DNA of 64,000 nt from positions 160,001-224,000 of the forward strand of contig CAVQSP010000017.1 in assembly GCA_963715985.1 (NCBI GenBank), written 5' to 3'. This document shows, one piece after another, positions 14,054 to 47,887 of the stretch. Made by a program: the position numbers and the translations under genes. Under the pieces are notes generated by a model, which had not been told where the DNA came from, searched no databases, and saw only the letters and a program-made list of their open reading frames with translations. The stretch is from an uncultured Thermoleophilia bacterium. GTDB lineage: Bacteria; Actinomycetota; Thermoleophilia; UBA2241. Within the stretch, counting starts at the first letter, position 1. Each line of letters begins with the position of its first letter.

Positions 14054-14069
14054 GTGACCGCGCGGTCAC
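14054..14069. promoter_or_regulatory. palindromic operator GTGACC-GCGC-GGTCAC (cluster motif copy 1)
   Basis: perfect palindrome in a divergent intergenic region, 63 nt upstream of the GAP start. Confidence 0.65.
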
Positions 14070-14225
14070 CCCGGCGGCCCGCCGGTCGTCACCCTCCCCA
14101 CGGTCTCAGACGACAGGTCCCGTGATTCGTCGTCCCGCCTGGTGGGCATCACGCTCAAAGGAAGACGCGGGGCAGCCGCACCGGGACCCGCGCGGTCCGG
14201 AACGCAAACAAGAGAGGGAGTGCAG

Positions 14226-14738
14226 ATGAGTGAACTGATGATCCTCGGCTTCGAGAACGAGACGGAGGCGGACCGCTTCGGCCTCAAGCTCGCGGAGCTG
14301 CAGAAAGAGATGATCGTGCAGCTGCAGGACGCTGCCGAAGTGGTCCGCGACCCCGACGGCAAGCCGCACGTCAAGCACGACACCCACCTCGTGGGCGCGG
14401 GCGCCCTGGGCGGCGCCTTCTGGGGCATGCTGTTCGGCCTGCTCTTCTTCATGCCGTTCCTGGGTCTGGCCATCGGCGCCGGCATGGGCGCCCTCTTCGG
14501 CAAGCTCGGCAAGACCGGCATCGACCAGCAGGTGCTCCAGCAGATGGGCGATGCGGTGCCGCCGGGCAAGGCCGGCTGGTACCTGCTCATCGGCCAGATG
14601 ACCGAGGACAAGTTCCTCGAGGAGGTCAAGGGGACCGGCGCGACGCTCGTGCGTTCCAACCTCACGGCCGAGCAGGAGGAGCAGCTCAAGCACGCCTTCG
14701 GCGCCAAGAAGCACCAGAAGGAAGCTCCGGCTGCCTGA
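14226..14738 (+). CDS. DUF1269-family protein
   Basis: MSELMILGF, LQDAAEV.RDPDGK, GALGGAFWGMLFGLLFF.P..G.A.GAG.GAL.GKL..GID, L.RSNL. Confidence 0.88.
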   Translation: MSELMILGFENETEADRFGLKLAELQKEMIVQLQDAAEVVRDPDGKPHVKHDTHLVGAGALGGAFWGMLFGLLFFMPFLGLAIGAGMGALFGKLGKTGIDQQVLQQMGDAVPPGKAGWYLLIGQMTEDKFLEEVKGTGATLVRSNLTAEQEEQLKHAFGAKKHQKEAPAA

Positions 14739-14775
14739 GTACACCTGAGGGAAGCTCAAGCTTCCTGACCAGCGT

Positions 14776-14809
14776 CGCGACGGGGCGGCCCTTGGGCCGC
14801 CCCGTCGCG
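14776..14809. terminator. GC-rich hairpin between convergent genes
   Basis: cgcgacggggcggccc-tt-gggccgccccgtcgcg. Confidence 0.75.
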
Positions 14810-14828
14810 TTCTCCGTTCACGACCGGC

Positions 14829-16247
14829 TCAGCTGCCCTCGCACCCGGTGCCGCGCTCACGCTTGAACGTGGCGTGCGCCTCGCAGTTCATGCGCACGTT
14901 GTTACGGTAGGCGAGATTGCTGACCAGGCTTCTGAGGGGCTGGCGGCGGTGCCAGAAGTCGCCCCCGACCCGCTGCGCGATCCGGGGCCACGAGTAGAAG
15001 CTCCGGGCACAGGTGTCCATCTCGTCGATGATCTCGGCCGTCGACAGGCGCGCGTAGCGGGCGACCGGGAACCCCAGGGTGTAATGACTCCAGTCCTCTG
15101 GGAAGCGATCCAGGAGGATGCGGTCCGCCGCCTCCATCTGGTCCCACAGGCGGGTACCGGGGAGGGGGGTGAGGAAGAGCGCGTTGAGGTTGTCCACTCC
15201 GTACCCGCGGGCGGCCTCGGCGACACGCGTGCCGATGCCCGGGCCGTCGATGTCCAGACCAAGGACGAACGAGCCGACCACGAGGATCTTGTGCCGCTGG
15301 ATGCGCCGCACGGAGGCGCGGAAGTCGCGGTCGCCGCGAAGGTTGAACTTCTTGCCGACCTCCCCGAGCCCTTCCGGCGCGGAGGACTCGAAGCCGATGA
15401 AGACACCCCGGCAGCCGGCCCGCCAGGCCAGCGTCATGAGCTCCTCGTCGTCGGCGAAGTTGATGGTGACCTGGGCGATCCATTGCTTGCGCAGATCCGC
15501 CGCCGCCATGGCGCGGAACAGGTCTTTGGCGCGCGCCACGTGCTCGGGCCGCGTGCCGATCAGATTGTCGTCCACCACGAGAAGGCGCTTCTCGCGGATC
15601 AGGCCGAGCTCCCTTACCACGTCCGCGATCGGTCGCTGCCGGTACTGCGCACCGTTGACCGCCGTCACGCTGCAGAAGCTGCAGCTGAGAGGGCAGCCAC
15701 GAGTAGTCTGGATGGCGCCGAGGAGGTAGCCGTTCGGCAGGAGATCGTGACGTGCAAGTGGGACGCGGTCCAGGTCGCAGCGCCCCCCGTCATAGCGATG
15801 CTCCAGCGCGCCCCGTCGCGCGTCGTCGAGCACCCGCGGCCAGATGCCCTCGGCCTCCCCCGTCACGACCGCGTCCACGCGCTCCATGACCTCCTCCGGG
15901 CGCGTGGAGGCGTGGATGCCGCCCATCACGACGGGGACACCGAGGCGGCGGAAGTGGGCGGCCACCTCGTAGGCACGGTTGGCCTGTGAGGCGAACGCGG
16001 TGATGCCCACAAGGTCCGGCCGCGAGAGGGCCGCGTAGTCGGGTCTGCCGAGGTTCTCGTCCACGATCGAGACGGCCCACTCCGGCGAGGTCGCGCCCGC
16101 GATCGTCATCAGCCCCAGGGGCTTCCACACCCGGTACCGGTTCCAGCGGTTGTCCTTGATGCGGACGGTGCTGACCAGCGGGTTGCAGGGATTGATCAGA
16201 CACAGTCGCAGGGCGGCCCCCCTGCGCTCGTCGCTGGAATCGTGCAC
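14829..16247 (-). CDS. B12-binding domain radical SAM protein
   Basis: PLGL, DLVGIT, VVMGGIHA, GEAE, TRGCPLSCSFC (CxxxCxxC), IGFES, TPLPGT; start uncertain. Confidence 0.88.
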   Translation of the reverse strand: MHDSSDERRGAALRLCLINPCNPLVSTVRIKDNRWNRYRVWKPLGLMTIAGATSPEWAVSIVDENLGRPDYAALSRPDLVGITAFASQANRAYEVAAHFRRLGVPVVMGGIHASTRPEEVMERVDAVVTGEAEGIWPRVLDDARRGALEHRYDGGRCDLDRVPLARHDLLPNGYLLGAIQTTRGCPLSCSFCSVTAVNGAQYRQRPIADVVRELGLIREKRLLVVDDNLIGTRPEHVARAKDLFRAMAAADLRKQWIAQVTINFADDEELMTLAWRAGCRGVFIGFESSAPEGLGEVGKKFNLRGDRDFRASVRRIQRHKILVVGSFVLGLDIDGPGIGTRVAEAARGYGVDNLNALFLTPLPGTRLWDQMEAADRILLDRFPEDWSHYTLGFPVARYARLSTAEIIDEMDTCARSFYSWPRIAQRVGGDFWHRRQPLRSLVSNLAYRNNVRMNCEAHATFKRERGTGCEGS

Positions 16248-16369
16248 GCTGCCCTCTCTGACACGGTGTGAGCGCTGCCTTCTCGGCGGCGAGACCTTCC
16301 CGCCCGGGCGCACACGTGGAATCGTACCAGAGCTCGACGGGGCGAGCAGCGCTTCGCGCGCGAGCCGGG

Positions 16370-17614
16370 TCACGCGCCGAGTGCGCCCTCGCCGCCTCCC
16401 GGCGGGCCGGCTCCGGCGGCGTGCGGATGTGCGCTCGCGGCGAGGCCGGTCCTTTGTGCGCCGCCCTCTGCGGCGCCGCGCGAGAACAGCCCGGCCGCCT
16501 TCATCTTGAGGCGCGCGTCAAGGAAGATCTTGAGGAACGGCGCCGCGAACACGCCGCCCACGGCCCCGAACAGCATGCTGCCCGCCGTGGTCGCGAAGAG
16601 GACGGCGAGGGGGTGCAGCTTGAGCGCCGACCCGAGGGCGAACTGCGAGACCACGGTCTGCAGGTAGCCGTTCGAGATGATGACGATGATCAGCATCGGG
16701 ACGGCCATGGAGGGCCCGCCCGCGCCCCACGCGATGAGGACGGCGAACGCCCCGCTGATGATCGCCCCGAAGAACGGGATGTAGTTGGTGAACCAGCCGA
16801 CGATGCCGATGGTCGCGGCCAGCGGCACGCCGATGATGAGCGCCCCGACGAACATGACGCCGCCGTTGAACAGACCGACGAGCGTGCTCCCGTAGATGTA
16901 GCCGCGGAAGAAGCGCGCGCTGCTCGCGAGGATGTCGTAGGCCACCGGTGGCGGGACGGGACCCATCCTCTTGGACGCCCACCTGCCCAGCTGCCGCCCC
17001 TGGATGAGGACCCACACGAGGATGTTGAGGCTGATGAAGACGCCGAAGATGAGGCCCGCGACGTTGCCGACTACGTTCGTGAGCGTGCCGGCCAGACCGC
17101 CGGCTGCGCTCTTGGCCAGCGACTGGACGCTGGATTTGACCGCGTCGATCTGCGACTGCGACATGCTCGTGCTCTTGAGCCAGGACTGGATGTCGGCCCA
17201 GGCTGCGTCGAGCTTGGTCTCGATGGTCGGCACCTGCTTGACGACGCTGTAGACGATGATGAGGCCGAGGCCTATCGCGAGCAGCACGAGGAAGATGGCG
17301 ACGAGCATCGCCGCCAGGCCGCGCTTCACGTGGTGCCTGGAGAGCCAATCCACGACCGGCAGGAACGTGCCGCCGAACAGCACCGCGAACAACGCCGCGA
17401 GGACCAGCACCTTGGTCGCGGCGACTACGAAGAAGAGCAGGACGATGACGACGGCGCAGAGCACGATGACACCGCTCCAGCGGCCGATGTCGCTCGCCCA
17501 GAGTGGGACGGCGAAGGCGCGGGCCCCGTCGCCATCGCTCGGTGAGCGCGGTGCGGGTGCGGTCACGGCCGGCCCGGCCGCGGGCTCTTCAGTGGTCAAG
17601 CGCTCCCCCTTCAT
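16370..17614 (-). CDS. AI-2E (PerM) family transporter
   Basis: multi-TM; YIPFFGA, LHPLAVL...GG.FAAP. Confidence 0.87.
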   Translation of the reverse strand: MKGERLTTEEPAAGPAVTAPAPRSPSDGDGARAFAVPLWASDIGRWSGVIVLCAVVIVLLFFVVAATKVLVLAALFAVLFGGTFLPVVDWLSRHHVKRGLAAMLVAIFLVLLAIGLGLIIVYSVVKQVPTIETKLDAAWADIQSWLKSTSMSQSQIDAVKSSVQSLAKSAAGGLAGTLTNVVGNVAGLIFGVFISLNILVWVLIQGRQLGRWASKRMGPVPPPVAYDILASSARFFRGYIYGSTLVGLFNGGVMFVGALIIGVPLAATIGIVGWFTNYIPFFGAIISGAFAVLIAWGAGGPSMAVPMLIIVIISNGYLQTVVSQFALGSALKLHPLAVLFATTAGSMLFGAVGGVFAAPFLKIFLDARLKMKAAGLFSRGAAEGGAQRTGLAASAHPHAAGAGPPGGGEGALGA

Positions 17615-17684
17615 CGGCTGCGCCCCTTCGAGCAGTGCGGGTCATGGTAGTCCTCCGGGGGCCGAGAAGCGACGGGCGGCGTGC

Positions 17685-19460
17685 TCACGCGCGTGTCGCA
17701 CCGCCCGTCGCCGGCAGAGGCCCGAGCTCCCGCACCGCCGTGACCGCGGCCTTGAGCGTGGGGTAGAAGTGGTCGCGGTCGAGGGTCTCGTAGAGCCCGT
17801 AGCGCAGCACACGGTCCTGGAGCCGGCTCCGCAGCTCGGCGAATGCAACGTGGGTCCCGGCGGCGTTGAGCTCGTTGTCCAGCTGCTCGAGCATCTCGGC
17901 CGCCGTCACGTCGATGTCGGTGACGGCCTCGCACTGGAGCACGACCCAGGCCGGCTTGCGTTCTCCCGCGCGAGGCGCCGGACCTGCTGGCGGAACATGC
18001 CGGCGTTGGCGAAGAAGAGGGGCGCCTCCCAGCGGTACACGACGATCTCGGGCAGCTGGCGGGCGTCCGGGTACGTGTCCAGGCTGTGCCAGCCCGGCAC
18101 GTCCTCGACCTCGCCGAGCACGGCGCCGTGGGGCCACCAGCTGCGGCGGAAGAACAGGAAGATGGCGAGGATGACGGCGATGGCGATCCCCCACAACACG
18201 CCGAACAGCACGACCCCGGCAGTGGCCACCAGCGAGAGCGCGAACGCGCTCTTGCGCACGCGCCAGTAGCGGCGCAGGATGCCGAAGTCCATCAGCGAGA
18301 GGGCGGCGACGATGACCACGGCGGCCAGCGTGGTCTGCGGGAGGTCGGCCAGCAGCCCGTTGAGGAACAGCAGGAGCAGCCCGACCAGGCCGGCGCCCAC
18401 GAGGCCGGTGACCTGGCTCTTGGCGCCCGACTGCTCGGCCACCGCGGTGCGCGAGCCGCTCGTCGACACGGCGAAGCCCTGGAAGAACCCGGCGGCGATG
18501 TTGGCGGCGCCCATGCCGATCATCTCCTGGTCGGGGTCGACCTCGTCGCCGCGCCGTGCGGCGAAGCTCGTCGACGTGGCGATGGTGTCGGTGAGGGACA
18601 CGAGCGTGATGCCCACGGCGGCGATGAGCAGCGGCCCTACGTCGCTGAGGCTCGTCCAGGGGAAGGACGGCGTGGGCACGCCCTGGGGCAGCGCGCCCAC
18701 ACGTCTTGACGCCCATCTCGGCGAGCCCGACCACGGCCGACACGATGGTGGCCCCGACGACGGCCACCAGCACCGCGGGCACGCGGCGCGTGAGCCGCGG
18801 CAGTGCGAGCAGCACGGCGAGGCAGGCGACGCCGACGGCCAGCGTCGTCGCGTCGGTCTTGTCGAGGCCCTCGACGAAAGCTCGCACTTCTTCGATGAAG
18901 GTGTCGGCGTCGGTCGAGAAGCCGAACAGCTTCGGCAGCTGGCCGACGATGATGGTGATGCCGAGGCCGTTCATGTAGCCGACCTGGACCTCCTTGGAGA
19001 GCAGGTCGGCGACGAACCCGAGCTTGCCGAGCCCCATGCCGATCTCGATGAGGCCGACGAACAGGGCCAGCATCCCGGCGAGGGCGATGGCGCTCGCCGG
19101 GTCGTCCGCCACCAGCAGCGGCACGATGGCCGCGAAGATCAGCGGCGAGACCGACGAGTCGGGCCCAAGGACGAGCACGCGTGACGGGCCGAAGATGGCG
19201 TAAGCCACCAGACAGGCGATGGTCGTGTAGAGGCCGGTGACCGCAGGCAGACCGGCCAGCTCGGCGTACGCCATCCCCTGCGGGACGAGGATGGCGGCCA
19301 GCACGACGCCGGCCACGAGGTCGGCGCGCAGCCAGCGGCGCTCGTAGGTGCGCACCACGCGCACCCCGGGCACCCAGCGCTCAAGATGCCTGGCCTTGGC
19401 CGGGGTCATCTCACCGTCCGGGGAGGCCGGGACGCTCGCGTCGCCGGCGTCGTGCGTCAC
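17685..19460 (-). CDS. second SulP/SLC26 transporter with STAS domain (frameshifts near 18700 and 17965)
   Basis: DLVAGVVLAAILVPQGMAYA, GPDSS, STSGSRT, YRWEAPLFFANA, IDVTAAEML. Confidence 0.9.
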   Translation of the reverse strand: MTHDAGDASVPASPDGEMTPAKARHLERWVPGVRVVRTYERRWLRADLVAGVVLAAILVPQGMAYAELAGLPAVTGLYTTIACLVAYAIFGPSRVLVLGPDSSVSPLIFAAIVPLLVADDPASAIALAGMLALFVGLIEIGMGLGKLGFVADLLSKEVQVGYMNGLGITIIVGQLPKLFGFSTDADTFIEEVRAFVEGLDKTDATTLAVGVACLAVLLALPRLTRRVPAVLVAVVGATIVSAVVGLAEMGVKTCGRAAPGRAHAVLPLDEPQRRRAAAHRRRGHHARVPHRHHRHVDELRRTARRRGRPRPGDDRHGRRQHRRRVLPGLRRVDERLAHRGGRAVGRQEPGHRPRGRRPGRAAPAVPQRAAGRPPADHAGRRGHRRRPLADGLRHPAPLLARAQERVRALAGGHCRGRAVRRVVGDRHRRHPRHLPVLPPQLVAPRRRARRGRGRAGLAQPGHVPGRPPAARDRRVPLGGAPLLRQRRHVPPAGPAPRAGERKPAWVVLQCEAVTDIDVTAAEMLEQLDNELNAAGTHVAFAELRSRLQDRVLRYGLYETLDRDHFYPTLKAAVTAVRELGPLPATGGATRA

Positions 19461-19948
19461 GGCGCCGGCTTCTGCCCTGTCAGCGCCTCGAGCTGCGCCT
19501 CCATCGTCGCTGTGCGCTCCAACAGCTGCTGCAGCATCGCCTGCGTCTCCGCCTCGCGTGCGGCCCGCGCCGCCGTGGCCTCGGCGGTGCGCTCATCCTG
19601 GTCGGCGGACACGAACATGGAGGTCACAGTCGCCGTGAAGAAGGAGAGAAAGGTCACGCCGACCACGATGACCACGGAGCCCACCACGCGGCCCCACGCG
19701 GTGTGCGGCACGATGTCGCCGTAGCCCACGGTGGCCAGCGTGACGATCGCCCACCAGATGCCGTCGCCCACCGTTTGGAAGTCCTGGTGGTCGATGATCG
19801 TCACGAGGACCCCGGCGCTGACGCCGATGATCAGTGTCGCGCCGGCGAGATAGCCGAACACGCGCCGGCTGGCGACGGCCTTACCCGACCGGCGCCGGAT
19901 ACGGCCTTCCACACCTTCTTTGCGTCTGCCTCGCCGCTCGTCGCTCAT
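19457..19948 (-). CDS. 2-TM KcsA-like potassium channel
   Basis: WWAIVTLATVGYGDIVP filter; C-terminal coiled coil. Confidence 0.9.
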   Translation of the reverse strand: MSDERRGRRKEGVEGRIRRRSGKAVASRRVFGYLAGATLIIGVSAGVLVTIIDHQDFQTVGDGIWWAIVTLATVGYGDIVPHTAWGRVVGSVVIVVGVTFLSFFTATVTSMFVSADQDERTAEATAARAAREAETQAMLQQLLERTATMEAQLEALTGQKPAP

Positions 19949-20000
19949 CTGGTCGTCCTTTGTCCGCGGTCAAGAGGGGTGTCGGGGGCGCGCCGCCGTT

Positions 20001-20678
20001 CTACGTGAACACGTTGACGGCGCGCGCGACCACGAGCCCCAGGAGGGCGAGCGAGATCGACGACTGGGCCATCATGGCGAGCTTGTTCCAGGCACGCAGC
20101 GGCATCGCGTCCGTGGGGCTGAAGGCGGTGGCGCTGGTGAAGCCGAGATAGAGGTAGTCGATGAATCGCGGCCGCCAATCCGCGGGCGCGAGCTCCGGGT
20201 TGAGCTGTTGAGGAAAGGCGAAGTCGGGGTGGGCCGGCAGCCCATGGGCGCGCATCGCCGCGCCGCCGCAGTCGAGCTCCCAGTAGAGCAGACCGAACGA
20301 CAGGCAGTTGGAGATCCAGACGATGCCACCGGCGGCCAGCAGCGTCGCCGCCGAATCGGTGGCCTGCCCCCCGACGATCAGCTGCGCGATCAGCACGCCC
20401 GTGCACCACAGCGTCGTGGCGACGAGCAGCGCGATGAGGGTGATGGAGAGCGCGCGCACCGGGCGCGAGCGCCGGTCGATCTTGCCCGGGTCTCCGATGA
20501 TGACGGCCACGAGCAGGAGAGCCTCGACGATCGGCACTCCCCAGCGCGGCCGCACGACGAGGCTGTTGGGCAGCAGGATCGTCAGCGCGATGATGGCCAC
20601 GACGGCCACGGCCATGGGCCAGCGCGCCTCGCCGACCACGCGCTGCTCGTGTGACTGTGACGGTATCGCCCCGGCCAT
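20001..20678 (-). CDS. DUF1345-family membrane protein
   Basis: EARWP, YWELD.GG..R, DFAFPQ, WRP.F.DYLYLGFT..TAFSPTD.MPL. Confidence 0.85.
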   Translation of the reverse strand: MAGAIPSQSHEQRVVGEARWPMAVAVVAIIALTILLPNSLVVRPRWGVPIVEALLLVAVIIGDPGKIDRRSRPVRALSITLIALLVATTLWCTGVLIAQLIVGGQATDSAATLLAAGGIVWISNCLSFGLLYWELDCGGAAMRAHGLPAHPDFAFPQQLNPELAPADWRPRFIDYLYLGFTSATAFSPTDAMPLRAWNKLAMMAQSSISLALLGLVVARAVNVFT

Positions 20679-20725
20679 GGTCCGCCCCCGCTGCCTCTTG
20701 CCCGTCGCGCCGTCCTGTCAGTATC

Positions 20726-25097: not shown

Positions 25098-25140
25098 GAA
25101 GCGCCGTAGACAGGCGATGTTCAGCGAGGAGAAGGCACTG

Positions 25141-40869: not shown

Positions 40870-40932
40870 GGCCCCGCCTCCTGTCCATCGGCCTCGCCGC
40901 CGTGATCAGCGCGTACAAGGCCTCCCCTTCAA

Positions 40933-40974
40933 CGCGGAGGCCCGCGGGTCCTTTCGGACGCGCGGGCCTCTGCG
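40933..40974. terminator. hairpin after the DUF1269 gene
   Basis: cgcggaggcccgcg...cgcgggcctctgcg. Confidence 0.5.
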
Positions 40975-41001
40975 ACCGCTGACTCGTGGCGCCGTAGCGC
41001 C

Positions 41002-41511
41002 TCAGGCCTCGGCCATCTCCTTCTCCGCCTCGGCCAGCTGCTTGTCCAGCTCCTTGGCGTCGACCTTGATCTCCTTCTCCATCTGCTTCTCGGCCTTGAG
41101 CTCGGCCTTCATCAGCTGCTCGTCGAGCTTGTCGCGGCCGATGACGATGAGGGCGGCCTCGCCCTCGTCCAGCATCTCGCCGAGCTCCTTGACGTCCTTG
41201 CGCGACATGCCCCGCCAGAAGTGCCCGATGAGGCCGCCGGCCACGCCGCCCACGAGGGCGGTGCCGATGATGGAGGGCGGGAACAGCACGCCGATGACGG
41301 CGCCCACGGCGATGCCTGTCCAGGCGCCGTGCTGCGTGGGCTTCTCCCACTTGGTGACGTGGACGCCCTTCTCGTCTTTGGTGGCCACGGCGGCGTCGTA
41401 GGTACCGATGACCTTGGCGGCGTGCAGGTCGCGCACGACCTCGAGGTCCTCGCGCGCGAGGGCTGGGTCGCTGTAGACGCCGACGAACAGGAACGCGGAC
41501 TGGTCTGCCAT
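41002..41511 (-). CDS. DUF1269-family protein
   Basis: YDAAV..KDE.G.V, GAWTGIAVGAVIGVLFPP..G..LVGG.AGGLIG, G.AALIVIG. Confidence 0.85.
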   Translation of the reverse strand: MADQSAFLFVGVYSDPALAREDLEVVRDLHAAKVIGTYDAAVATKDEKGVHVTKWEKPTQHGAWTGIAVGAVIGVLFPPSIIGTALVGGVAGGLIGHFWRGMSRKDVKELGEMLDEGEAALIVIGRDKLDEQLMKAELKAEKQMEKEIKVDAKELDKQLAEAEKEMAEA

Positions 41512-41565
41512 GCTGACTCCTTGGGTGGGTTGGCGGTGAGAACGGTGCGGCGGCCGGTGCCGCCT

Positions 41566-42970
41566 TCAGATCCCGGCCTCGGCCGGTATCTTGCCCAGCT
41601 CGATGGCTTTCAGAACGGCGGCGTGGTCCTTCTCGGCCTGGTTCGCATAGGCCTCTGGGCGAAGTCCGCGATGGCCTGGTCGAAGCGGTCGCTGACGCCC
41701 AGGTACGAGGCGATGGCGATGCGCCGCCCGGAGCGGGCGTGCCCGCGGGCCAGCGTCCAGCCGCAGAGCGTCGCCAGGACTTCGAGGCCGGCGGGCCTGA
41801 GGATCGCGGTATCGATGGAGCCCTTCATGTCTCGCAGCTGGCGCCAGTAGAAGTGGCGCCCCTCCGGCTGGCCGGTCATCCAGCCCAGGAAGATGTCGCT
41901 GGCCGCCTGCATGAGGCGCTGTCCGGCCACCACGCGGTGGCCTGCATGCGTGAAGCGGCTCCTGCCCAGGTACGGCTCGAGGACCGACGGCCCGGCCTCC
42001 TTGACCTGCAGGAACAGCGGGTCGTCGACGTCGCGTCCGAGCAGCAGCCCGATGATGCAGCGCGTGCCCACGCTGCCCACGCCGACGACCTTGCGGGCGA
42101 CGTCGACGATGTCGTAGCGATCGATGAGCGTGCGCCGGTCGTCCGCCAGCGTGCGCTTGTACTGCTCGAACAGGGCGTGGATGCGTTCGGCGTCCTGGAG
42201 CTCCTCGAAGTGCATCACGAGCGGTGGCTGATCCACGATGCGCCGCACCCCGTCCACGACCTCCGTCAGCTTGCCGGCGGCCTGGAGGCTGTCGCGGCCG
42301 CGAGTCTTGGCGAGCGTCTTCTGCGCGGTCTTGATCCGGGTCTTGGTGTCGGCCTTGGCCCCCCCTTCGGCGCCCAGCGTCTTGCGCGCCATCTCCAGGA
42401 GGTCGTCGGCCACCACGCGGGAGTACCACACGTCGAGCTCGCGCATCTCGGCGTAGGCGGTCATGTGCTCGCGGTAGGAGCGTACCGACGCAAGCGCGGT
42501 CTCGCGGGCGACGTCCTGGTCAAAGCCGTTCTCGCGGCTCGCCAGCACGAAGCTGGCGGCGAGCCGCTTCAGGTCCCACTCGAACGGGCCCGGCAGCGTC
42601 TCGTCGAAGTCGTTGACGTCGAAGAGCAGCTCGCGCTCCGGCGACCCGTACAGGCCGAAGTTGGCGAGGTGCGCGTCGCCGCACAGCTGGACCTGCAGAC
42701 CGGTCCGCGGCATCGGCGCCAGATCCGCGGCCATGAGTGCTGCCGAGCCGCGGTAGAACGTGAACGGAGAGGCCGACATGCGCCCCCAGCGGATGGGGAC
42801 AAGGTCGGCCATGCGGCCTCGTCTTGCGCCCTCAGGAGCGCGATCGGGTCGGGCCGGTCCGGCGCCGGCTTCCAGTCGCCGTGCGACGTGCGGGGGGCCG
42901 TCTTGCGCGCCTGTCTCCCCGCCGCCTGCCGCTCGACGGTGCTGTCGTGCGCCCACTTCTGCGTGGTCAT
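41566..42970 (-). CDS. DUF2252 protein (kinase-like), frameshifts near 42815 and 41655
   Basis: R.GRM..SPF.FYRGSA, CGDAHL.NFG, DVNDFDE, KVVGVGSVGT, LQVKEA, RQLRDMK, LAR.HARSG. Confidence 0.88.
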
Positions 42971-43007
42971 TGCGGGACTCCTTGTACGGTGGTCGGGAGG
43001 GCCGGCG

Positions 43008-45368
43008 TCATTCCCTGGCCAGCATGGCCTGGGCCTGGCGCTCCAGGTCCAGGTACGGCTCGCCGCTGACGTCCACGGCGACGCGCTTGATCGTGCCGCC
43101 GGTGAAGCTGTGCGGCGACGCGCCGGGGTAGTCGTCGGTGACGGCCTCGCCGCTGTCGCGACCCACGCACAGGCCCTCGCCGGCCAGCGAGAAGTAGCCC
43201 GGCTGGGTCTTGATGCGACCCTCGCCGACCTTCTTGTCGCCGTGGTACAGCGAGAGCATGCCGGTGGCGACGCCGGGCGGGTCCTCGCCGTCCTTGTCGA
43301 ACGCTGCCGAGAGGATGAGGTCCTCGCCGGTCGGCAGGTCCTCGGTCGCGTCGACCTTCTGCTCGAAGATGCCGACGAAGCTGTTGACGTAGTGCAGCCT
43401 GTCGTCCTTGACGTAGAGGGCGTGCCCGCCGAAGCGGGCGCCGTGCGCGAACAGCACACCCTCGGCGCCGGCGGCCGGGATGTCGACGAGTGCTCCGATC
43501 GCGAAGGAGCGGTTGCGGATGTTGACGGCTTGCTGCTCCGGCACGTCGGCGGTGCCGGGGAAGTACGTGTACCGGTCGCGTGGCGGCGCGAGCGCGGGCC
43601 GCGGCGTCAGGATGATCTCCAGCGGTGAGCGGTCGTCGAGCGGGAAGGCGCCGTTCCTGCCGGCCTCGGCGAACCACAGGCTCTGGAGCTCCCTCAGCTT
43701 GGCCCAGTTCTCCTTGGCGAGGTCGTGCATCTCGGAACGGTCGACGTCGACGTGGTACAGCTCCCACTCGTCGTCGTTGAAGTGGCTCCACCCGGCGATG
43801 GTCGGGTGCGTGGTCACGGCCTTCCAGCCCTCGTGCCAGATGCCGCGAGAACCCAGCATCGAGTAGAACTGCGTCGTGCGGGCACCGTCGGCCTTGGCGT
43901 CGTCGAAGGCATAGCGCATGCTCACGCCGTCGAAGGCGCTCTGCACGTGCCCCTTGATGGTCGCCGGGCTTTTCACGCCGAGGCAGTCGAGCACGGTCGG
44001 GACGACGTCGATCGCGTGGTGATACTGCTCCCTGATCTCACCCCTGGCCTTCATGCCCGCCGGCCACGACATGATGCAGGGGTCGGCGGTGCCGCCGTTG
44101 AACTCGTAGCGCTTCCACATCTTGAACGGCGTGTTGAAGGCCATCGCCCAGCCGTTGGTGTAGTGGTTGTAGGTCTTGGGGCCGCCGAGCTCGTCGAGCA
44201 TCTTCAGGTTGGTCTCGAGGTCGTCGGGGATGCCGTTGAAGAAGAGGTTCTCGTTGACCGACCCGTCCGGGCCGCCCTCGCCGCTGGCGCCGTTGTCCGA
44301 CACGAGGATCACGAGCGTGTTCTCCCGCAGGCCCGCCCACTCGAGATAGTCGAGCAGGACTCCGATGTAGTGGTCGGTGTGGGCGAGGAAGCCGGCGTAC
44401 ACCTCGGCCATGCGCGCGAAGAGCCGCTTCTCGCCGTCCGAGAGCGTGTCCCACGGCTTTGTCACGTCGAGCAGCGGGAACGGCTTGTCGCCGGGTCCCT
44501 TGCGCGTCTCGCTCGTTCCGATGGGATTGAGAGGCGGAAGCTCGGTCTCCGGCGGGACGAGGCCCATCTCCTTCTGGCGGGCGAGGGTCTGCTCGCGCAT
44601 CGCCTCGTAGCCCATGTCGAACTGGCCCTTGAACCTGTCGATCCACTCTCGTGGGCGCGTGATGCGGCGCGTGGCAGGCGCCCGGGCGCGTAGTAGAGGA
44701 AGAAGGGCTTGTCCGGGGCGATCGCCTTGGCGTCCTTGATGAACTCGAGCGCCTTCTCGGTGAGGTCCTCGGTGAGGTGGTAGCCCTCCTCCGGTGACTT
44801 CGGCGGGTCGACCGGATGGTTGTCGTAGACCAGGTCGGGATACCACTGGTTGCTCTCGGCGCCGAGGAAGCCGTACCAGCGCTCGAAGCCGCGCCCGGAC
44901 GGCCAGTTGCGGCGCGGCGCCGCCAGGTTCATCTCGTCGGTGGGGCACAGGTGCCACTTGCCGACCATGTACGTGTTCCAGCCCAGCTCGCCGAGGATCT
45001 CGGGCAGCATGCCGTTCTCGGGGGGGATCGTGCCACTGGCGTTGGGGAACCCGACGGCCGCCTCGGTGATGCACGCCATCGAGTTGCGCGTGTGGTTGCG
45101 GCCGGTGAGCAGGCACGAGCGCGTCGGCGAGCAGAGCGCCGTGGTGTGCCACTGCGTGTAGCGCACGCCGTCGGCGGCGATCTTGTCGATGTTGGGCGTG
45201 GGGATCGGGCCGCCGTAGCAGCTACATCGCCGAGAAGCCGACGTCGTCGAGCACGATGTAGACGACGTTGGGCGCCCCGTCCGGCGCCTTCGGCGGCTCG
45301 AACGGCGCCCAGTCCGGCGTCGAGTCGCGGATGTCGACGTTGATGACTCCCTTGAATGGTTCGCTCAT
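43008..45368 (-). CDS. second Cys-type arylsulfatase (frameshifts near 45220 and 44670)
   Basis: FKGVINVDIRDSTPDW, PNVVYIVLDD, LCSPTRS, GKWH, SDNG; GAGGAG RBS. Confidence 0.9.
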
Positions 45369-45494
45369 GCCTCGTCACTCCTCGTGGTCTCGTGTGGAGA
45401 TGCCCTGGGGGCGGTGCGGCTGCAGTCGTGCCCGCTAGGCTACAGCCTCCGTGTTCGGTTCGTGTTGCCGTCGGCGTTGCACCGATACGCCGGA

Positions 45495-46823
45495 TCAGGT
45501 CTGCGGGGGGTCGGCCGCAGCGCCTGCGGAGGACGTGCTGCGCGCCGCCTGCCGGGCGCTCACGCGGCGCTGCACAAGCGGCAGGGCGATCATCACCGTG
45601 GCCACGGCCAGCACGATGAGCGCGACGAGCGTCGCGCCGGCATCGAGCATGAAGGCCGTGAGCAGCACGACCATGAGCGGCGTGCGGAACAGCGCGTACA
45701 CCGCGCCGCTCATCACGCCGGCCACGAGGATCGTGACCGGCATGCCGGGGAAGACGAGGTTGAGGGCCAGCGCCACGCTGGTCGAGGCGAAGATGAGCGG
45801 GAAGGTCGGCCCGCCGAGGAACCCGCTCTTGAACCCCACCGCGAGCAGCGCCAGCTTGCCGACCGCCATCACGAGCAGGACGGCGATGCCGTATCCGGCG
45901 GCGCCGTCGATGACCGTGTGCACCTGGGTCTCGCCCGAGAACATGACGACGGGGGCGAGCACGCCCACCACGCTGAAGACCACGCCGGCCACGAGCGCTC
46001 GCAGCACGATCCGGTCCTTGAGGCGCGCGAAGAACCGCTCGGAGGCCTTCATGAACAGCGCCGTGAGCAGCGCGAGCACCAGGCCCAGGAGGGCGAGCGG
46101 CACCATGACGACAGCGTCGAGGAGACGGTAGCTCGAGACCGGCGGCAGGTGCAGGAAGTTGACGAAGCCGGTCTCGTGCAACAGCAGGAAGACGGCGTAG
46201 CCGACGCCGCCGCCGATGAGGCTGGCGGGCAGGGTCGCGAGCCCCTTCTGCTTCGTCTCCGCGACCTCCGCGCCCAGCACGGCGGCGAAGACCGGGTTCT
46301 CCAGCAGCCCGTTGTAGCCCGAGGCCACGCTGCCGAAGATGAGCTTGGGCCGCTGCTCGGCCGGGATCCGGAACAGGTCGCAGTACATGGCCGCGACCTT
46401 GCTGGCGATGTTGCCGATGGCGCCCTCCGGGCCCAGCACGGCGCCCGAGAACAGCGAGGCGAGCGACTGCGCCACCGTCGCCGGCAGGTCCTTCCACTTC
46501 AGGCGAGTGACGTCACCGGTGAGGCTGTCGAGGATGGACCCGTCCAGGTTGCTCGGCGCCTTGGCGTACTTGACGAGCAGGCCGACCAGCAGGGAGAAGG
46601 GCAGGCAGATGAGCGGGAACATCCAGGCGTGGGCCGTGACGAAGCCGTTGTCCCAGATGAGCTTGTTGAGGGCTTCGTAGACGACGAACCAGGCGAGCAC
46701 GCCGAAGCCCCCGATGAGCGACACCGCCACGACGTGCAGGTAGATGCCGCGAGGTTCCGGCCGCTCGGTGGGTGACGCGGCTTGAGCCTGGGGTGGCGCT
46801 GTCTGCGGCGGATCGGCGCTCAC
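45495..46823 (-). CDS. ClC/YfeO-like chloride channel protein
   Basis: GAVLGPEG, GFLGGPTFP, FSGE; 442 aa with no CBS domain. Confidence 0.82.
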   Translation of the reverse strand: MSADPPQTAPPQAQAASPTERPEPRGIYLHVVAVSLIGGFGVLAWFVVYEALNKLIWDNGFVTAHAWMFPLICLPFSLLVGLLVKYAKAPSNLDGSILDSLTGDVTRLKWKDLPATVAQSLASLFSGAVLGPEGAIGNIASKVAAMYCDLFRIPAEQRPKLIFGSVASGYNGLLENPVFAAVLGAEVAETKQKGLATLPASLIGGGVGYAVFLLLHETGFVNFLHLPPVSSYRLLDAVVMVPLALLGLVLALLTALFMKASERFFARLKDRIVLRALVAGVVFSVVGVLAPVVMFSGETQVHTVIDGAAGYGIAVLLVMAVGKLALLAVGFKSGFLGGPTFPLIFASTSVALALNLVFPGMPVTILVAGVMSGAVYALFRTPLMVVLLTAFMLDAGATLVALIVLAVATVMIALPLVQRRVSARQAARSTSSAGAAADPPQT

Positions 46824-46876
46824 GCAGCGGTCACGCTCCTTCCCGCGTACCGGTCAGGGCCGCGTCGGACACAGAA

Positions 46877-46906
46877 ACGGCGGGCGGCGTCTCCGCCGCC
46901 CGCCGT
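46877..46906 (-). terminator. hairpin terminator
   Basis: acggcgggcggcg-tctc-cgccgcccgccgt with a short T run on the minus strand. Confidence 0.6.
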
Positions 46907-46947
46907 GTTCTTCCCGCCTGCGGGTCCTGCGAATCTCCCGGTCAGGC

Positions 46948-47450
46948 TCAGTCGTCGAGCGCCAGCCCGATCTCGGCGCCGACCGCCAGCAGGTCCTGCG
47001 GGTGCAGCCACTTGTCGGCCAGCAGCACGCCGCCGGCGTCGCCCAGGGCGTCCCTGAGCGGGATGGCCCAGCGGTGCTCGAGCACGGCGATGGCCGCCGT
47101 GAACCCCTCGGGGATCGCATCGGCGATGTACCAGACTTCCTCTTCGTCGTAGAGGTCGCCTCGACGGCCGCCTCGGCGCCGACCTCGGCGCCGACCTCGG
47201 CGCCTTCCTCACCGGCCGCGCCGAAGCCGACCAGCGCGCCCGCGAAGGCCCCGAGCTTGGCCATCTCGTCGATGTCCTCGACCTCGACCTTCTCGAAGGT
47301 GCCATCGTCGTTCTTGTGGATCAGCAGGAGGTCGACCACGCGGACCACGTCGTGCTCGCGGAGCTTCCTCAGCTCCTCGAGACCTCTGCCCTTGAACTCT
47401 GCCTCAGGGCCGAAGCCCACCACCAGGATCTGGATCGGACCCAGTGCCAT
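46948..47450 (-). CDS. DUF6325/DUF1269-type protein (frameshifts near 47100-47160)
   Basis: LGPIQILVVGF, VRVVDLL..HK..DG, LEHRWAIPLRDAL..AGG. Confidence 0.8.
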
Positions 47451-47476
47451 CGCGTACTCCTTTCAGCAGGTCCGGC

Positions 47477-47791
47477 TCAGCCGCCCTGCAGCGCCTTCTG
47501 CTTGGCGGCCTCGAACTCCTCCGGCGAGAGCACGCCTGCGTCCATGAGGCCTTTGAGCTGGGTGAGCTGGTCGGCGATGCTCGTTCCGCCTGCCGCCGCG
47601 ACCGGGGCCGCCGCCGCAGGGGCCGGCGCCTGCTGCTGGTACTGCTGCTGCTGTTGCTGCGCCTGCAGGTCGGCGATCTGCGCGTTCTGATCGGCCTCCT
47701 GCTGCGACGCCTGGGCGCCCTTCTTGCCCACGTGGTAGGCGGCCCCGCCGATCACAGCGGCGCCCAACAGCGGCCTTCTCCTCATCATCAT
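47477..47791 (-). CDS. SHOCT-domain protein
   Basis: RRRPLLGAAVIGG N-terminus, Q/A/P linker, QLTQLK.L.DAGVLSPEEFEAAK. Confidence 0.87.
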   Translation of the reverse strand: MMMRRRPLLGAAVIGGAAYHVGKKGAQASQQEADQNAQIADLQAQQQQQQYQQQAPAPAAAAPVAAAGGTSIADQLTQLKGLMDAGVLSPEEFEAAKQKALQGG

Positions 47792-47871
47792 GGTGACTGC
47801 CTCCCGGTGTAAGTGGTGGTCCCCTCCAGGGACTCGCTCCTGAGGCCCACTATACCCTGCGCACGGGACTC

Positions 47872-47887
47872 GTCACCATCCGGTAAC
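47872..47887. promoter_or_regulatory. palindromic operator GTCACC-ATCC-GGTAAC (copy 6)
   Basis: 80 nt upstream of the SHOCT start; minus-strand -10 TATAGT at 47854-47849, 17 nt from the motif edge. Confidence 0.62.

What the first reader, a model, noticed from the sequence alone, without database searches (positions are those of the whole stretch)
14054..47887. Six copies of a 16-bp palindrome GTNACC-N4-GGTNA(C/T) mark the promoters of the transport/sulfatase cluster
Seen: GTGACCGCGCGGTCAC (14054), GTGACCGAACGGTCAC (22242), GTGACCAGCTGGTAAC (24707), GTTACCAGCGGGTCAT (32787), GTGACCGGATGGTAAC (38290) and GTCACCATCCGGTAAC (47872). All are intergenic and lie 63-84 nt upstream of the first gene of a transcription unit: GAP-SulP, the cls operon, the 24807 operon, the FSDRP gene, sulfatase 1 and the SHOCT operon. 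Two overlap the -35 position of plausible TAnnnT -10 boxes. A GGTAAC half-site (32933) sits at a similar distance from the P-type ATPase. By eye I found no full copy in intergenic DNA outside 11-48 kb. Established: GTNAC-N6-GTNAC resembles actinobacterial GlnR/OmpR-type boxes. Inference: one regulator, not obviously encoded here, controls the whole cluster as an undescribed regulon.
Basis: partly seen in the sequence, partly recalled or inferred. Interest (0 to 1): 0.85.

Follow-up and report, generated by a model that had tools for sequence, protein, structure and literature searches.

The report
TetR repressor boxes across a transporter island
Six copies of a 16-base palindrome really do sit in front of the operons of a 37-kb transporter, channel and sulfatase island in an uncultured actinobacterium, and the likely binder is a TetR-type regulator encoded inside the island.

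Summary
There are six sites GTNACC-N4-GGTNA(C/T) against 0.21 expected, all intergenic. Two-mismatch look-alikes occur at background.

The regulon is real and conserved. In 31 related loci from uncultured Thermoleophilia-type genomes I found 45 perfect sites against 0.2 expected. Over all 38 loci plus the window, only the 4-base spacer is enriched and 49 of 51 perfect sites are intergenic. Sites stand in front of orthologues of the window's own first genes.

A TetR-family gene (38413-39078) lies divergent from sulfatase 1 with a site between them. In 18 of 31 orthologue loci a site lies within 400 nt upstream of that gene.

Its closest solved fold is E. coli RutR. The RutR box TTGACCAnnTGGTCAA has the same core, TNACC-N4-GGTNA. 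A paralogue with a changed recognition helix carries a changed palindrome.

The GlnR/OmpR reading fails, because the symmetry is inverted, not direct. Binding, ligand and sign of regulation are untested. This is a new member of a known kind, of moderate interest.

The parts
14054..14069 (.). Operator site 1, GTGACCGCGCGGTCAC, between the divergent genes SfLAP/GAP-family (start 13990, - strand) and DUF1269 (start 14142, + strand).
   Evidence: Orthologues of SfLAP (L024) and of DUF1269 (L001, L012, L023, L033) also lie directly behind a site.
22242..22257 (.). Operator site 2, GTGACCGAACGGTCAC, 52 nt upstream of the cardiolipin-synthase-like gene and just after the stop codon of the unrelated TetR-A gene.
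   Evidence: cls orthologues in L001, L018, L028 and L034 lie directly behind a site.
24707..24722 (.). Operator site 3, GTGACCAGCTGGTAAC, 84 nt upstream of the small gene 24807-25097.
   Evidence: Orthologues of the 96-aa protein in L001, L006 and L028 lie behind a site. Reading, TTGCAT-18 nt-TAACGT would place the right half-site in a -10 box, but the strict scan found no promoter there.
32787..32802 (.). Operator site 4, GTTACCAGCGGGTCAT (T instead of C at position 16). It lies 77 nt upstream of the ATG at 32709 (- strand) and 174 nt upstream of the P-type ATPase (+ strand).
   Evidence: A promoter-like TTCACA-16-CACAAT on the - strand ends at 32809, so the site would cover the transcription start. 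Orthologues of gene 32254-32709 in L007, L011 and L026 lie behind a site.
38290..38305 (.). Operator site 5, GTGACCGGATGGTAAC, in the 203-nt region shared by the divergent genes sulfatase 1 and TetR-B.
   Evidence: In an alignment of 14 orthologous intergenic regions, the invariant and nearly invariant columns fall in the site (G91, T92, A94, C95, C96, G101, G102, T103, A105), apart from C7 and C11 near the 5' end.
47872..47887 (.). Operator site 6, GTCACCATCCGGTAAC, 80 nt upstream of the SHOCT gene (- strand) and 53 nt upstream of the AHSA1-like ORF (+ strand).
   Evidence: A promoter-like GTGACG-16-TATAGT on the - strand has its first hexamer inside the site. SHOCT orthologues lie behind a site in 11 loci.
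32933..32938 (.). Lone GGTAAC half-site 44 nt upstream of the P-type ATPase start. It has no partner half-site, and its meaning is open.
38413..39078 (+). TetR-B, the proposed binder: a TetR-family regulator of 221 aa. Orthologues are about 212 aa, so the start may be the ATG at 38440. The recognition helix region reads GVSHALVHRYLGSK.
   Evidence: Pfam TetR_N, E = 1.2e-13. AlphaFold2 model with mean pLDDT 87.5. Best PDB fold matches are E. coli RutR, TM 0.66-0.68 normalised to the query. Pairwise identity to RutR is 29%. A site lies upstream of orthologues in 18 of 31 loci.
35858..38209 (-). Sulfatase 1, a Cys-type sulfatase (CSPSR at residue 84), divergent from TetR-B.
   Evidence: Pfam Sulfatase, E = 2.6e-71. 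Motif. Sulfatase homologues lie behind a site in 12 loci, 10 of them as DUF1269-sulfatase fusions divergent from TetR-B.
11053..13990 (-). Inferred transcription unit behind site 1: SfLAP/GAP-family, SulP sulfate permease, a small ORF and DUF7144.
   Evidence: Same-strand genes with short gaps. The operon structure is inferred, not shown.
14142..14738 (+). DUF1269 membrane protein behind site 1.
14829..22189 (-). Inferred unit behind site 2: cls (PLD-type), unknown gene 20001-20678, K+ channel, SulP (frameshifted), AI-2E-family transporter and a B12-binding radical SAM protein.
   Evidence: Six same-strand genes with gaps of 70 nt or less. In 13 other loci the AI-2E gene has its own site.
24807..28898 (+). 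Inferred unit behind site 3: two small unknown genes, an Ion_trans channel, a Na+/H+ exchanger and unknown gene 28191-28898. Gaps of 192 and 373 nt make the extent uncertain.
   Evidence: Na+/H+ exchanger orthologues lie behind sites in L014, L016 and L020.
28995..32709 (-). Inferred unit behind site 4: unknown gene 32254-32709, two unknown genes, Ppx/GppA phosphatase and a TMEM175-type K+ channel. A 609-nt gap after the first gene makes the extent uncertain.
32977..35778 (+). P-type (type II, Ca2+-ATPase-like) ATPase. Membership of the regulon is uncertain.
   Evidence: No orthologue lies behind a site in the loci.
39147..47791 (-). Inferred unit behind site 6: SHOCT, DUF6325, CLC channel, sulfatase 2 (frameshifted), DUF2252, DUF1269, MIP (frameshifted) and MIP.
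   Evidence: Same-strand genes. DUF2252 and DUF1269 orthologues lie behind sites elsewhere.

Best explanation
The 16-bp palindrome (core TNACC-N4-GGTNA) is the operator of TetR-B, a TetR-family dimer encoded in the island at 38413-39078.

How it would work: one dimer binds each of the six operators, which lie in or next to the core promoters of about ten transcription units holding roughly 33 genes. These genes encode ion channels and exchangers, SulP permeases, two sulfatases, a cardiolipin-synthase-like enzyme, aquaporins, Ppx, and the SHOCT, DUF1269 and DUF2252 proteins. Bound TetR-B would hold the units, and probably its own gene, repressed. An unknown small ligand bound in the C-terminal domain would release it.

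Shown here: the sites, their enrichment, their spacing specificity, their conservation in front of orthologous genes, the TetR fold, and the likeness to the RutR box.

Inferred: that TetR-B is the binder, that it represses, that a ligand releases it, and the extent of each operon.
For: 1. Site statistics. The window has 6 sites against 0.21 expected. The 31 TetR-B orthologue loci (493 kb) have 45 perfect sites against 0.2 expected and 47 one-mismatch sites against 10.4 expected. Over all 38 loci plus the window, the 4-base spacer gives 51 hits while every other spacer from 0 to 12 gives 0-2. Of the perfect sites 49 of 51 are intergenic, and of the one-mismatch sites 49 of 53, although about 82% of bases are coding by my own crude gene caller. 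The median distance to the nearest start codon reading away is 75 nt, for the 93 sites that have such a gene.

2. Conserved targets. Orthologues of the window's first genes lie directly behind sites elsewhere:
- TetR-B: 22 proteins;
- sulfatase: 12;
- SHOCT: 11;
- cls: 4;
- DUF1269: 4;
- gene 24807: 3;
- gene 32254: 3;
- SfLAP: 1.
Pfam on all 112 site-flanking proteins of the loci gave TetR_N 19, SHOCT 13, AI-2E 13, Sulfatase 12, methyltransferase 8, holin-like 7 and PLD 4. The rest were smaller groups: stand-alone DUF1269 4, Na+/H+ exchanger 3, DUF2252 3, other families 16, and no family 10.

3. Link to TetR-B.
- A site with at most one mismatch lies within 400 nt upstream of the TetR-B orthologue in 18 of 31 loci.
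- In 4 more loci (L006, L024, L035, L037) the site precedes same-strand genes that run into TetR-B.
- L010 has a core-perfect variant, CTTACC-AGAG-GGTAAG.
- Sites cluster around the gene. Two loci from the same assemblies but centred on distant paralogues have no perfect site: L029 has one one-mismatch hit inside a gene and L031 has none. Their TetR-B loci L011 and L028 have 2 and 5 perfect sites.
- The other TetR in the island, TetR-A, has no orthologue in any of the 38 loci.

4. Fold and box. The model is confident (mean pLDDT 87.5). Its best PDB matches are E. coli RutR, with 29% identity over the full length. The RutR box is TTGACCAnnTGGTCAA, with positions 4 and 13 the most important (PMC2475637, passages read). 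It matches this motif at all eight core positions: T2, A4, C5, C6, G11, G12, T13 and A15.

5. Helix and box change together.
- L009 is a paralogue in the same assembly as the canonical L018. Its helix reads SHPVVHEY, and a 22-bp perfect palindrome with changed half-sites, TCTACC-CAAT-GGTAGA, lies upstream of it.
- L036 is a 30%-identical homologue in a Eubacteriales-labelled genome with the canonical helix. Upstream of it lies GTAACC-N6-GGTAAC, the only N6 instance in all the DNA scanned.
Against: - No binding, expression or ligand data exist. Everything is comparative.
- The loci were fetched through TetR-B, so the co-occurrence is biased. I could not test whether genomes lacking TetR-B lack the motif.
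- 6 of 31 orthologue loci (L002, L003, L004, L005, L008, L025) show no convincing site near the gene. L002 is a 3-kb contig.
- Distant paralogues (L029, L030, L031, L033, a second gene in L007, L038) carry the identical recognition helix. None of the 7 distant-paralogue loci has a site within 400 nt upstream. So the helix alone does not predict a site, and another paralogue could be a binder, or the binder.
- The residues modelled to contact bases in RutR are K51, L55 and Y56 (PMC2952853, passages read). In TetR-B they are H56, H60 and R61. The shared box core is therefore not explained by shared contacts.
- In the window the site lies 108-135 nt upstream of the TetR-B start, and the strict scan found no promoter in that region. 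Autoregulation in this genome is not established.
- Several loci are near-duplicates of each other (L026/L027, L016/L020, L003-L005), so the counts are not fully independent.
Confidence: 0.72

Rival explanations
1. The palindrome is bound by a different dimeric regulator encoded elsewhere in the genome. TetR-B would then be one more target of that regulator.
For: 6 of 31 orthologue loci have no site near TetR-B. Only 64 kb of the source genome is visible. The loci were chosen through TetR-B, so the co-occurrence is biased. MarR, PadR and a third TetR gene lie in the window outside the island.
Against: Sites cluster around TetR-B and are scarce in paralogue-centred loci of the same assemblies. 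TetR-B is the only regulator found consistently in the loci: TetR-A has 0 hits in 38 loci and PadR has 1. The box matches that of TetR-B's closest solved relative. A paralogue with a changed helix has a changed box upstream of itself.
Confidence: 0.14
2. Several TetR paralogues that share the recognition helix GVSHALVHRYLGSK all bind the same box. The island would then integrate several ligands, and TetR-B would be one of several binders.
For: Paralogues of 37-44% identity with the identical helix occur in the same assemblies or loci as TetR-B orthologues: L011 with L029, L028 with L031 and a second gene in L028, and two genes in L007. They lack a site of their own.
Against: There is no direct evidence that these paralogues bind the box. 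Their neighbourhoods are mixed: photolyase, glyoxalase, aldolase, and only sometimes island-type genes. The window shows no second paralogue.
Confidence: 0.1
3. The motif is a GlnR/AfsQ1-type box (GTnAC-n6-GTnAC) bound by an OmpR-family response regulator as tandem direct repeats.
For: The motif formally fits GTnAC-n6-GTnAC, the consensus quoted for S. venezuelae GlnR (PMC10704036, passages read). The 11-bp period matches tandem winged-helix binding.
Against: Positions 5-6 (CC) and 11-12 (GG) are 99-100% conserved in mirror symmetry. Positions 0 and 17, which a direct repeat would require, carry no information. No GaAAc-type b-site variants occur: T13 is 95%. The targets are channels, sulfatases and membrane proteins, not nitrogen genes. 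No response regulator was found among the window ORFs scanned.
Confidence: 0.03
4. The palindrome is a non-regulatory repeat, such as a mobile-element end, a terminator hairpin or a restriction/methylation target.
For: It is a short palindrome. The half-site overlaps GTNAC/GGTNACC-type recognition sequences (recalled, not tested).
Against: The flanks carry no conserved sequence. No T-run or terminator-like site was found in the six regions scanned. Rfam gave no match. Sites lie upstream of genes, a median of 75 nt from start codons, and almost never in coding DNA. A restriction target would not behave this way.
Confidence: 0.01

Closest known systems
E. coli RutR and its RUT box (TetR family)
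   Same: RutR is the best solved-structure match to the TetR-B model (TM 0.66-0.68 normalised to the query), with 29% identity over the full length. Its box is a 16-bp palindrome, TTGACCAnnTGGTCAA, with positions 4 and 13 critical (PMC2475637). The core TNACC-N4-GGTNA and the spacing are identical. The carP1 study infers that a single dimer binds each site (PMC2952853). RutR has about 20 chromosomal targets (PMC2475637), so it too is more than a one-operon local regulator. TetR-B W173, invariant in the family, aligns with RutR W167. A PDB entry title names a W167A mutant as unliganded. This is a lead only.
   Different: TetR-B is not an orthologue: the NCBIfam RutR model scores 32.8 bits against a cut-off of 368. 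The outer positions differ (G1/C16 here, T1/A16 in RutR), and position 3/14 is degenerate here. The modelled base-contacting residues differ: H56, H60 and R61 here against K51, L55 and Y56. The regulon is unrelated, since RutR controls pyrimidine catabolism and carAB. Most RutR sites lie inside genes (PMC2475637), whereas these sites are almost all intergenic.
M. tuberculosis / BCG Rv3405c, the TetR repressor of the adjacent rv3406
   Same: A TetR-family repressor controls an adjacent sulfate-ester-cleaving enzyme gene (PMC10453824, passages read). One source labels 8 of the 120 listed TetR-B homologues 'TetR/AcrR family transcriptional regulator, repressor for neighboring sulfatase'. I recall, but could not verify, that this label derives from Rv3405c.
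   Different: A paper title calls Rv3406 a sulfate ester dioxygenase (PMC11998004, search listing only). Sulfatase 1 here is a Cys-type formylglycine sulfatase with CSPSR. I could not compare the sequence with Rv3405c, and I did not find its operator in the passages read. That system is a one-gene local switch, whereas this one has six operators.
GlnR / AfsQ1 boxes of actinobacteria (OmpR family)
   Same: Both share the formal consensus GTnAC-n6-GTnAC (PMC10704036).
   Different: Those boxes are 11-nt direct repeats with a/b sites bound by response regulators in front of nitrogen genes. This motif is a strict inverted repeat with an invariant inner CC/GG, in front of transport and membrane genes.

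Membership tests
TetR-family repressor with palindromic operator | N-terminal TetR-type HTH domain | tested here: met
   Pfam TetR_N, E = 1.2e-13, residues 27-73.
TetR-family repressor with palindromic operator | All-helical two-domain TetR fold | tested here: met
   AlphaFold2 model with mean pLDDT 87.5 and ten helices. 112 PDB matches at E <= 0.001; all of those listed are TetR-family proteins.
TetR-family repressor with palindromic operator | Two-fold symmetric operator of about 15-16 bp with fixed half-site spacing | tested here: met
   Symmetric information profile. Only the 4-base spacer is enriched: 51 hits against 0-2 for each other spacer.
TetR-family repressor with palindromic operator | Operator next to the regulator's own gene (divergent or upstream) | tested here: met
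   Window site 38290. 18 of 31 orthologue loci have a site within 400 nt upstream, and 4 more have one upstream of the operon. 6 have none.
TetR-family repressor with palindromic operator | The protein binds the operator, and a ligand releases it | not testable with these tools
   Needs EMSA, DAP-seq and ligand screening.
RutR (equivalog) | Scores above the curated NCBIfam RutR cut-off | tested here: not met
   TIGR03613 scores 32.8 bits against a cut-off of 368; PRK15008 scores 29.3 against 230.
RutR (equivalog) | RUT-box core sequence and spacing | tested here: met
   All eight core positions are shared (T2, A4, C5, C6, G11, G12, T13, A15): against PMC2475637.
RutR (equivalog) | Conserved base-contacting residues K51, L55 and Y56 | tested here: not met
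   The aligned residues are H56, H60 and R61. K61 of RutR is kept as K66 (contacts from PMC2952853).
RutR (equivalog) | Pyrimidine-catabolism / carAB regulon | tested here: not met
   The targets are channels, transporters, sulfatases, cls and SHOCT/DUF proteins.
GlnR/AfsQ1 (OmpR-type) box | Direct-repeat (11-nt) architecture with a- and b-sites | tested here: not met
   Mirror-symmetric CC/GG, no information at positions 0 and 17, and T13 at 95%.
GlnR/AfsQ1 (OmpR-type) box | Formal match to GTnAC-n6-GTnAC | tested here: met
   All six sites fit. The consensus is from PMC10704036.
GlnR/AfsQ1 (OmpR-type) box | Nitrogen-metabolism targets and a cognate response regulator | tested here: not met
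   No such targets are present, and no Response_reg/Trans_reg_C domain was found in the 67 window ORFs scanned. The rest of the genome is unseen.
KO-style label 'TetR repressor for neighbouring sulfatase' | Divergent or adjacent sulfatase gene | tested here: met
   Window sulfatase 1. DUF1269-sulfatase fusions lie divergent from TetR-B in 10 loci.
KO-style label 'TetR repressor for neighbouring sulfatase' | Orthology to the characterised founder protein | not tested
   The founder could not be identified or fetched. Searches found no source paper.

The most novel reading that the evidence does not exclude
A lineage-specific TetR subfamily with one invariant recognition helix has expanded into several paralogues per genome in uncultured Thermoleophilia-type bacteria. 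These paralogues would converge on one RutR-like box and act together as a master switch for a 30-40-gene membrane and ion-homeostasis island (channels, exchangers, aquaporins, cardiolipin synthase, membrane-anchored sulfatases, polyphosphatase). The island would be deployed as a block, for example on entry to or exit from a stress or dormancy state. Where a paralogue escaped this cross-talk, helix and box changed together (the L009 case).
Probability: 0.2. Interest if true: 0.6.

Novelty: new member of a known kind. Interest (0 to 1): 0.45.

Why it matters
These organisms are known only from assembled genomes, so their regulatory wiring can be read only from sequence. This work gives a testable regulator-operator pair and a conserved list of co-regulated genes. 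Many of those genes have no known function: SHOCT, DUF1269, DUF2252, DUF7144, DUF6325, and the small proteins 24807 and 32254. They can now be placed in one physiological module alongside ion channels, sulfate permeases, sulfatases and a cardiolipin-synthase-like enzyme.

The work also gives a natural experiment on TetR specificity. The box core is the same as RutR's although the contact residues differ, and one paralogue shows a changed helix together with a changed box.

It does not overturn anything. The mechanism proposed is the ordinary TetR one.

Tried and rejected
- TetR-A (22282-22965) as the binder. It shows no significant similarity to TetR-B and has no orthologue in any of the 38 loci, while the site in front of cls is conserved without it. 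Rejected.
- PadR (50157-50723). It has one homologue in 38 loci. Rejected.
- GlnR/OmpR box. Rejected on symmetry and on targets.
- Structured RNA. Rfam at gathering threshold gave 0 matches in the window.
- Longer motif. The flanks carry no information.
- Promoter mapping. The strict scan found a promoter touching the site in only 2 of 6 regions. A count of TANNNT around 132 oriented instances showed peaks only where the half-site itself supplies the TA, plus a weak rise 17-20 nt downstream of the site. The position relative to promoters therefore stays largely unresolved.
- Function of gene 32254. Pfam at E <= 1 gave nothing, and the Atlas returned only 'hypothetical protein' clusters.
- Solved close relatives of TetR-B. 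PDB sequence matches are mostly confined to the HTH.
- Literature. Seven searches found no description of this motif or regulon in the held library: TetR+sulfatase+palindrome; the label phrase; Rv3405c; GTGACC/GGTCAC+TetR+operator; DUF1269+SHOCT; TetR family+arylsulfatase, plus the RutR search. Subscription papers and supplements were not seen.
- Not done. No complex prediction was run.

Full report
**1. The observation**

The pattern GTNACCNNNNGGTNAY occurs at exactly the six coordinates given: 14054, 22242, 24707, 32787, 38290 and 47872. Dinucleotide-preserving shuffles expect 0.21, with a largest value of 2. The 14-bp core TNACCNNNNGGTNA returns the same six sites and nothing else, against 0.29 expected. 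With up to two mismatches the window gives 19 hits against 24.4 expected. The 13 two-mismatch hits are therefore background, and the six sites form a separate class.

**2. Gene map**

The window is about 70% G+C. I mapped genes with ORF lists, a crude third-position G+C caller of my own, and Pfam/NCBIfam. All six sites are intergenic.

The region 11-48 kb encodes:
- two SulP permeases, one of them frameshifted;
- an SfLAP/GAP-family protein and DUF7144;
- two DUF1269 proteins;
- a B12-binding radical SAM protein and an AI-2E-family transporter;
- two K+-channel-type proteins and a TMEM175-type channel;
- a PLD-type cardiolipin-synthase-like enzyme;
- a Na+/H+ exchanger, Ppx/GppA and a type II P-type ATPase;
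- two sulfatases: sulfatase 1 has CSPSR, and sulfatase 2 is frameshifted;
- two MIP channels, one of them frameshifted;
- DUF2252, a CLC channel, DUF6325 and SHOCT.

It also holds two TetR-family genes. TetR-A (22282-22965, - strand) ends just before site 22242. TetR-B (38413-39078, + strand) is divergent from sulfatase 1, with site 38290 in the shared 203-nt region. The two show no significant similarity to each other.

From strand and spacing, the six sites could drive about ten units that cover nearly every gene between 11.0 and 48.4 kb. The exceptions are TetR-A and its SsuA-like neighbour. This operon structure is inferred.

**3. Relatives**

TetR-B has many close homologues, almost all from metagenomic sources. 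I aligned 31 of them and spent the single genome-contig scan on that alignment. It returned 38 loci, 36 labelled as uncultured Thermoleophilia, Actinomycetes or Actinomycetota genomes and 2 as Eubacteriales. Of these, 31 hold an orthologue at 44% identity or more, three of them apparently frameshifted. The other 7 hold distant paralogues at 42% or less.

**4. The motif is conserved, specific and regulatory in position**

- The 31 orthologue loci (493 kb) hold 45 perfect and 47 one-mismatch sites, against 0.2 and 10.4 in shuffles. The 7 distant-paralogue loci (130 kb) hold 1 and 5, against 0 and 3.2.
- Over all the DNA, the inverted arrangement with a 4-base spacer gives 51 hits, and every other spacer from 0 to 12 gives 0-2.
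- 49 of 51 perfect sites and 49 of 53 one-mismatch sites are intergenic, although about 82% of bases are coding by my caller.
- For the 93 sites that have a gene reading away, the nearest start codon lies a median of 75 nt off, with an interquartile range of 50-122 nt.
- The information profile is mirror-symmetric. T2/A15 are 99% conserved, A4/T13 95%, C5C6/G11G12 99-100% and G1/C16 82%. Position 3/14 is anything but C/G respectively, and the flanks carry nothing. These sites were selected with the pattern, so only the free positions and the flanks are informative.

**5. The same genes are behind the sites elsewhere**

Pfam on all 112 site-flanking proteins of the loci gave:
- TetR_N 19;
- SHOCT 13 and AI-2E 13;
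- Sulfatase 12, of which 10 are DUF1269-sulfatase fusions of about 968 aa;
- methyltransferase 8 and holin-like 4-TMS 7;
- PLD/cls 4 and stand-alone DUF1269 4;
- Na+/H+ exchanger 3 and DUF2252 3;
- DUF7144 2, radical SAM/SPASM 2, Metallophos_2 2 and Trypsin_2 2;
- one each of SfLAP, DUF2254, TMEM175-DUF1269, FGGY, DUF1254/1214, SpoIIE, MFS-cNMP and PLP-decarboxylase-cNMP;
- no family 10.

BLASTP shows that the first gene behind each window site has orthologues directly behind a site in other genomes:
- SfLAP: L024;
- DUF1269: L001, L012, L023, L033;
- cls: L001, L018, L028, L034;
- gene 24807: L001, L006, L028;
- gene 32254: L007, L011, L026;
- sulfatase: 12 loci;
- TetR-B: 22 proteins;
- SHOCT: 11 loci.

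The P-type ATPase and the AHSA1-like gene have none, so their membership is open.

**6. Who binds**

The evidence points to TetR-B.

(a) A site with at most one mismatch lies within 400 nt upstream of the orthologue in 18 of 31 loci. In L006, L035 and L037 the site precedes a methyltransferase gene that runs into TetR-B. In L024 it precedes a sulfatase followed by tandem TetR genes. L010 has the core-perfect 22-bp palindrome CATCTTACCAGAGGGTAAGATG. L015 has a two-mismatch site. L002-L005, L008 and L025 show nothing convincing.

(b) In an alignment of 14 orthologous TetR-B upstream regions, the only invariant or nearly invariant columns apart from C7 and C11 near the 5' end are those of the site.

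(c) TetR-A has no orthologue in any locus, and PadR has one.

(d) Sites cluster near the gene. L029 and L031 come from the same assemblies as L011 and L028 but are centred on distant paralogues. Neither has a perfect site; L029 has a single one-mismatch hit inside a gene, and L031 has none.

(e) The AlphaFold2 model is confident, with mean pLDDT 87.5. Its best PDB matches are E. coli RutR, at TM 0.66-0.68 normalised to the query. Pairwise identity to RutR is 29% over the full length, E = 5e-10 (hhalign probability 96.8). The RutR box is TTGACCAnnTGGTCAA, with positions 4 and 13 the most important (PMC2475637, passages). It shares all eight core positions and the spacing with this motif.

(f) Helix and box vary together. 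L009 is in the same assembly as the canonical L018. Its helix reads SHPVVHEY instead of SHALVHRY, and the perfect palindrome TATTCTACCCAATGGTAGAATA lies upstream of it. There the otherwise 99%-conserved T2/A15 has become C/G. L010 has R61 changed to Q, with C at position 1. L036 is a 30%-identical homologue in a Eubacteriales-labelled genome with the canonical helix. Upstream of it lies GTAACC-N6-GGTAAC, the only N6 instance anywhere in the DNA scanned.

**7. Evidence that cuts the other way**

- The loci were chosen through TetR-B, so I cannot show that the motif is absent where the gene is absent.
- Distant paralogues (L029-L031, L033, a second gene in L007, L038) carry the identical recognition helix but have no site upstream: 0 of the 7 distant-paralogue loci within 400 nt. 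In L032 a one-mismatch site lies 279 nt upstream of a 404-aa double-TetR ORF.
- Most of these paralogues (L029-L031, L033, the second L007 gene) appear to start close behind TGnTAnnnT-like boxes. Their neighbourhoods are mixed.
- So the helix alone does not predict a site, and paralogues may share the box.
- The residues modelled to read bases in RutR are K51, L55 and Y56 (PMC2952853, passages). In TetR-B they are H56, H60 and R61. The shared core is therefore a resemblance, not a demonstrated shared read-out.
- Positions 1 and 16 also vary among sites of loci with the canonical helix, so the covariation at position 1 is weak. The T2-to-C change in L009 is the stronger case.

**8. Mechanism**

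By family precedent I propose ligand-relieved repression. The position data are thin. The strict sigma-70 scan places the first hexamer of GTGACG-16-TATAGT inside site 47872, on the SHOCT side. It places TTCACA-16-CACAAT so that it ends 7 nt before site 32787, on the gene 32254 side, so the site would cover the transcription start. The other four regions gave no promoter. By reading, TTGCAT-18-TAACGT would put the right half of site 24707 in a -10 box.

The ligand is unknown. TetR-B W173, invariant in the family, aligns with RutR W167. That is only a lead to where the pocket lies.

**9. Comparison and novelty**

TetR-B is not RutR: it scores 32.8 bits against a cut-off of 368. It is not a GlnR/OmpR system. 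One source labels some homologues 'repressor for neighboring sulfatase'. I could not find the origin of that label. I recall that it may come from Rv3405c, which represses rv3406 (PMC10453824, passages). A paper title describes Rv3406 as a sulfate ester dioxygenase (PMC11998004, listing only), so it is not a Cys-type sulfatase.

None of my searches found this motif or regulon in print. Subscription journals and supplements were not seen.

I rate it a new member of a known kind: an ordinary TetR-operator logic, but an uncharacterised subfamily, a six-operator regulon of roughly 33 genes, and a gene content that ties many DUF proteins to ion and sulfate handling.

**10. Limits**

- Only 64 kb of the source genome is visible.
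- Gene calls in the loci come from my own composition-based caller.
- Several loci are near-duplicates of each other.
- Nothing here is experimental.

Noticed in passing
window 17685-19460, 39888-40869, 43008-45400, 10193-10972: Four genes are split by frameshifts: a SulP permease, a MIP channel, sulfatase 2 (at least two shifts, with CSPTR in a middle piece) and an ABC-2 permease. TetR-B matches in L034, L035 and L037 are also split. These could be true pseudogenes or assembly indel errors; I cannot tell which.
   Followed up: partly
window 22282-24675: TetR-A and a divergent SsuA-like binding-protein gene sit inside the island but have no counterpart behind sites in the 38 loci. This looks like a lineage-specific insertion between the cls unit and the 24807 unit.
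   Followed up: partly
L009:9906-9927 and L018 (same assembly): One genome holds both a canonical TetR-B with canonical boxes and a paralogue with a changed recognition helix and a changed 22-bp perfect palindrome upstream of itself. This is a possible case of a helix and its operator diverging together.
   Followed up: partly
L036:160-177: A 30%-identical homologue in a Eubacteriales-labelled genome has the same half-sites upstream, but with a 6-base spacer.
   Followed up: no
L029, L030, L031, L033 and L007:16507-17085: Distant paralogues with the identical recognition helix start about 6-12 nt after TGnTAnnnT-like boxes, which suggests leaderless or near-leaderless transcripts. They have no box of the island type.
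   Followed up: partly
L011, L014, L016-L021, L027, L028: In most related genomes the gene divergent from TetR-B is a fusion of about 968 aa with an N-terminal DUF1269 membrane domain and a sulfatase. In the window the DUF1269 proteins and the sulfatases are separate genes.
   Followed up: no
L032:2933-10615: Two pairs of near-identical sites lie about 4.9 kb apart, with duplicated trypsin-like and 404-aa double-TetR genes. This indicates a tandem duplication of the unit.
   Followed up: no
window 38413-39078: TetR-B has a lower third-position G+C (0.81) than its neighbours (0.89-0.95). My composition-based gene caller missed it at the higher threshold.
   Followed up: no
L003-L006, L025, L026, L035, L037: A SHOCT gene and a class I methyltransferase form a recurrent divergent pair with a site between them. 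The window has SHOCT but no such methyltransferase next to it.
   Followed up: no
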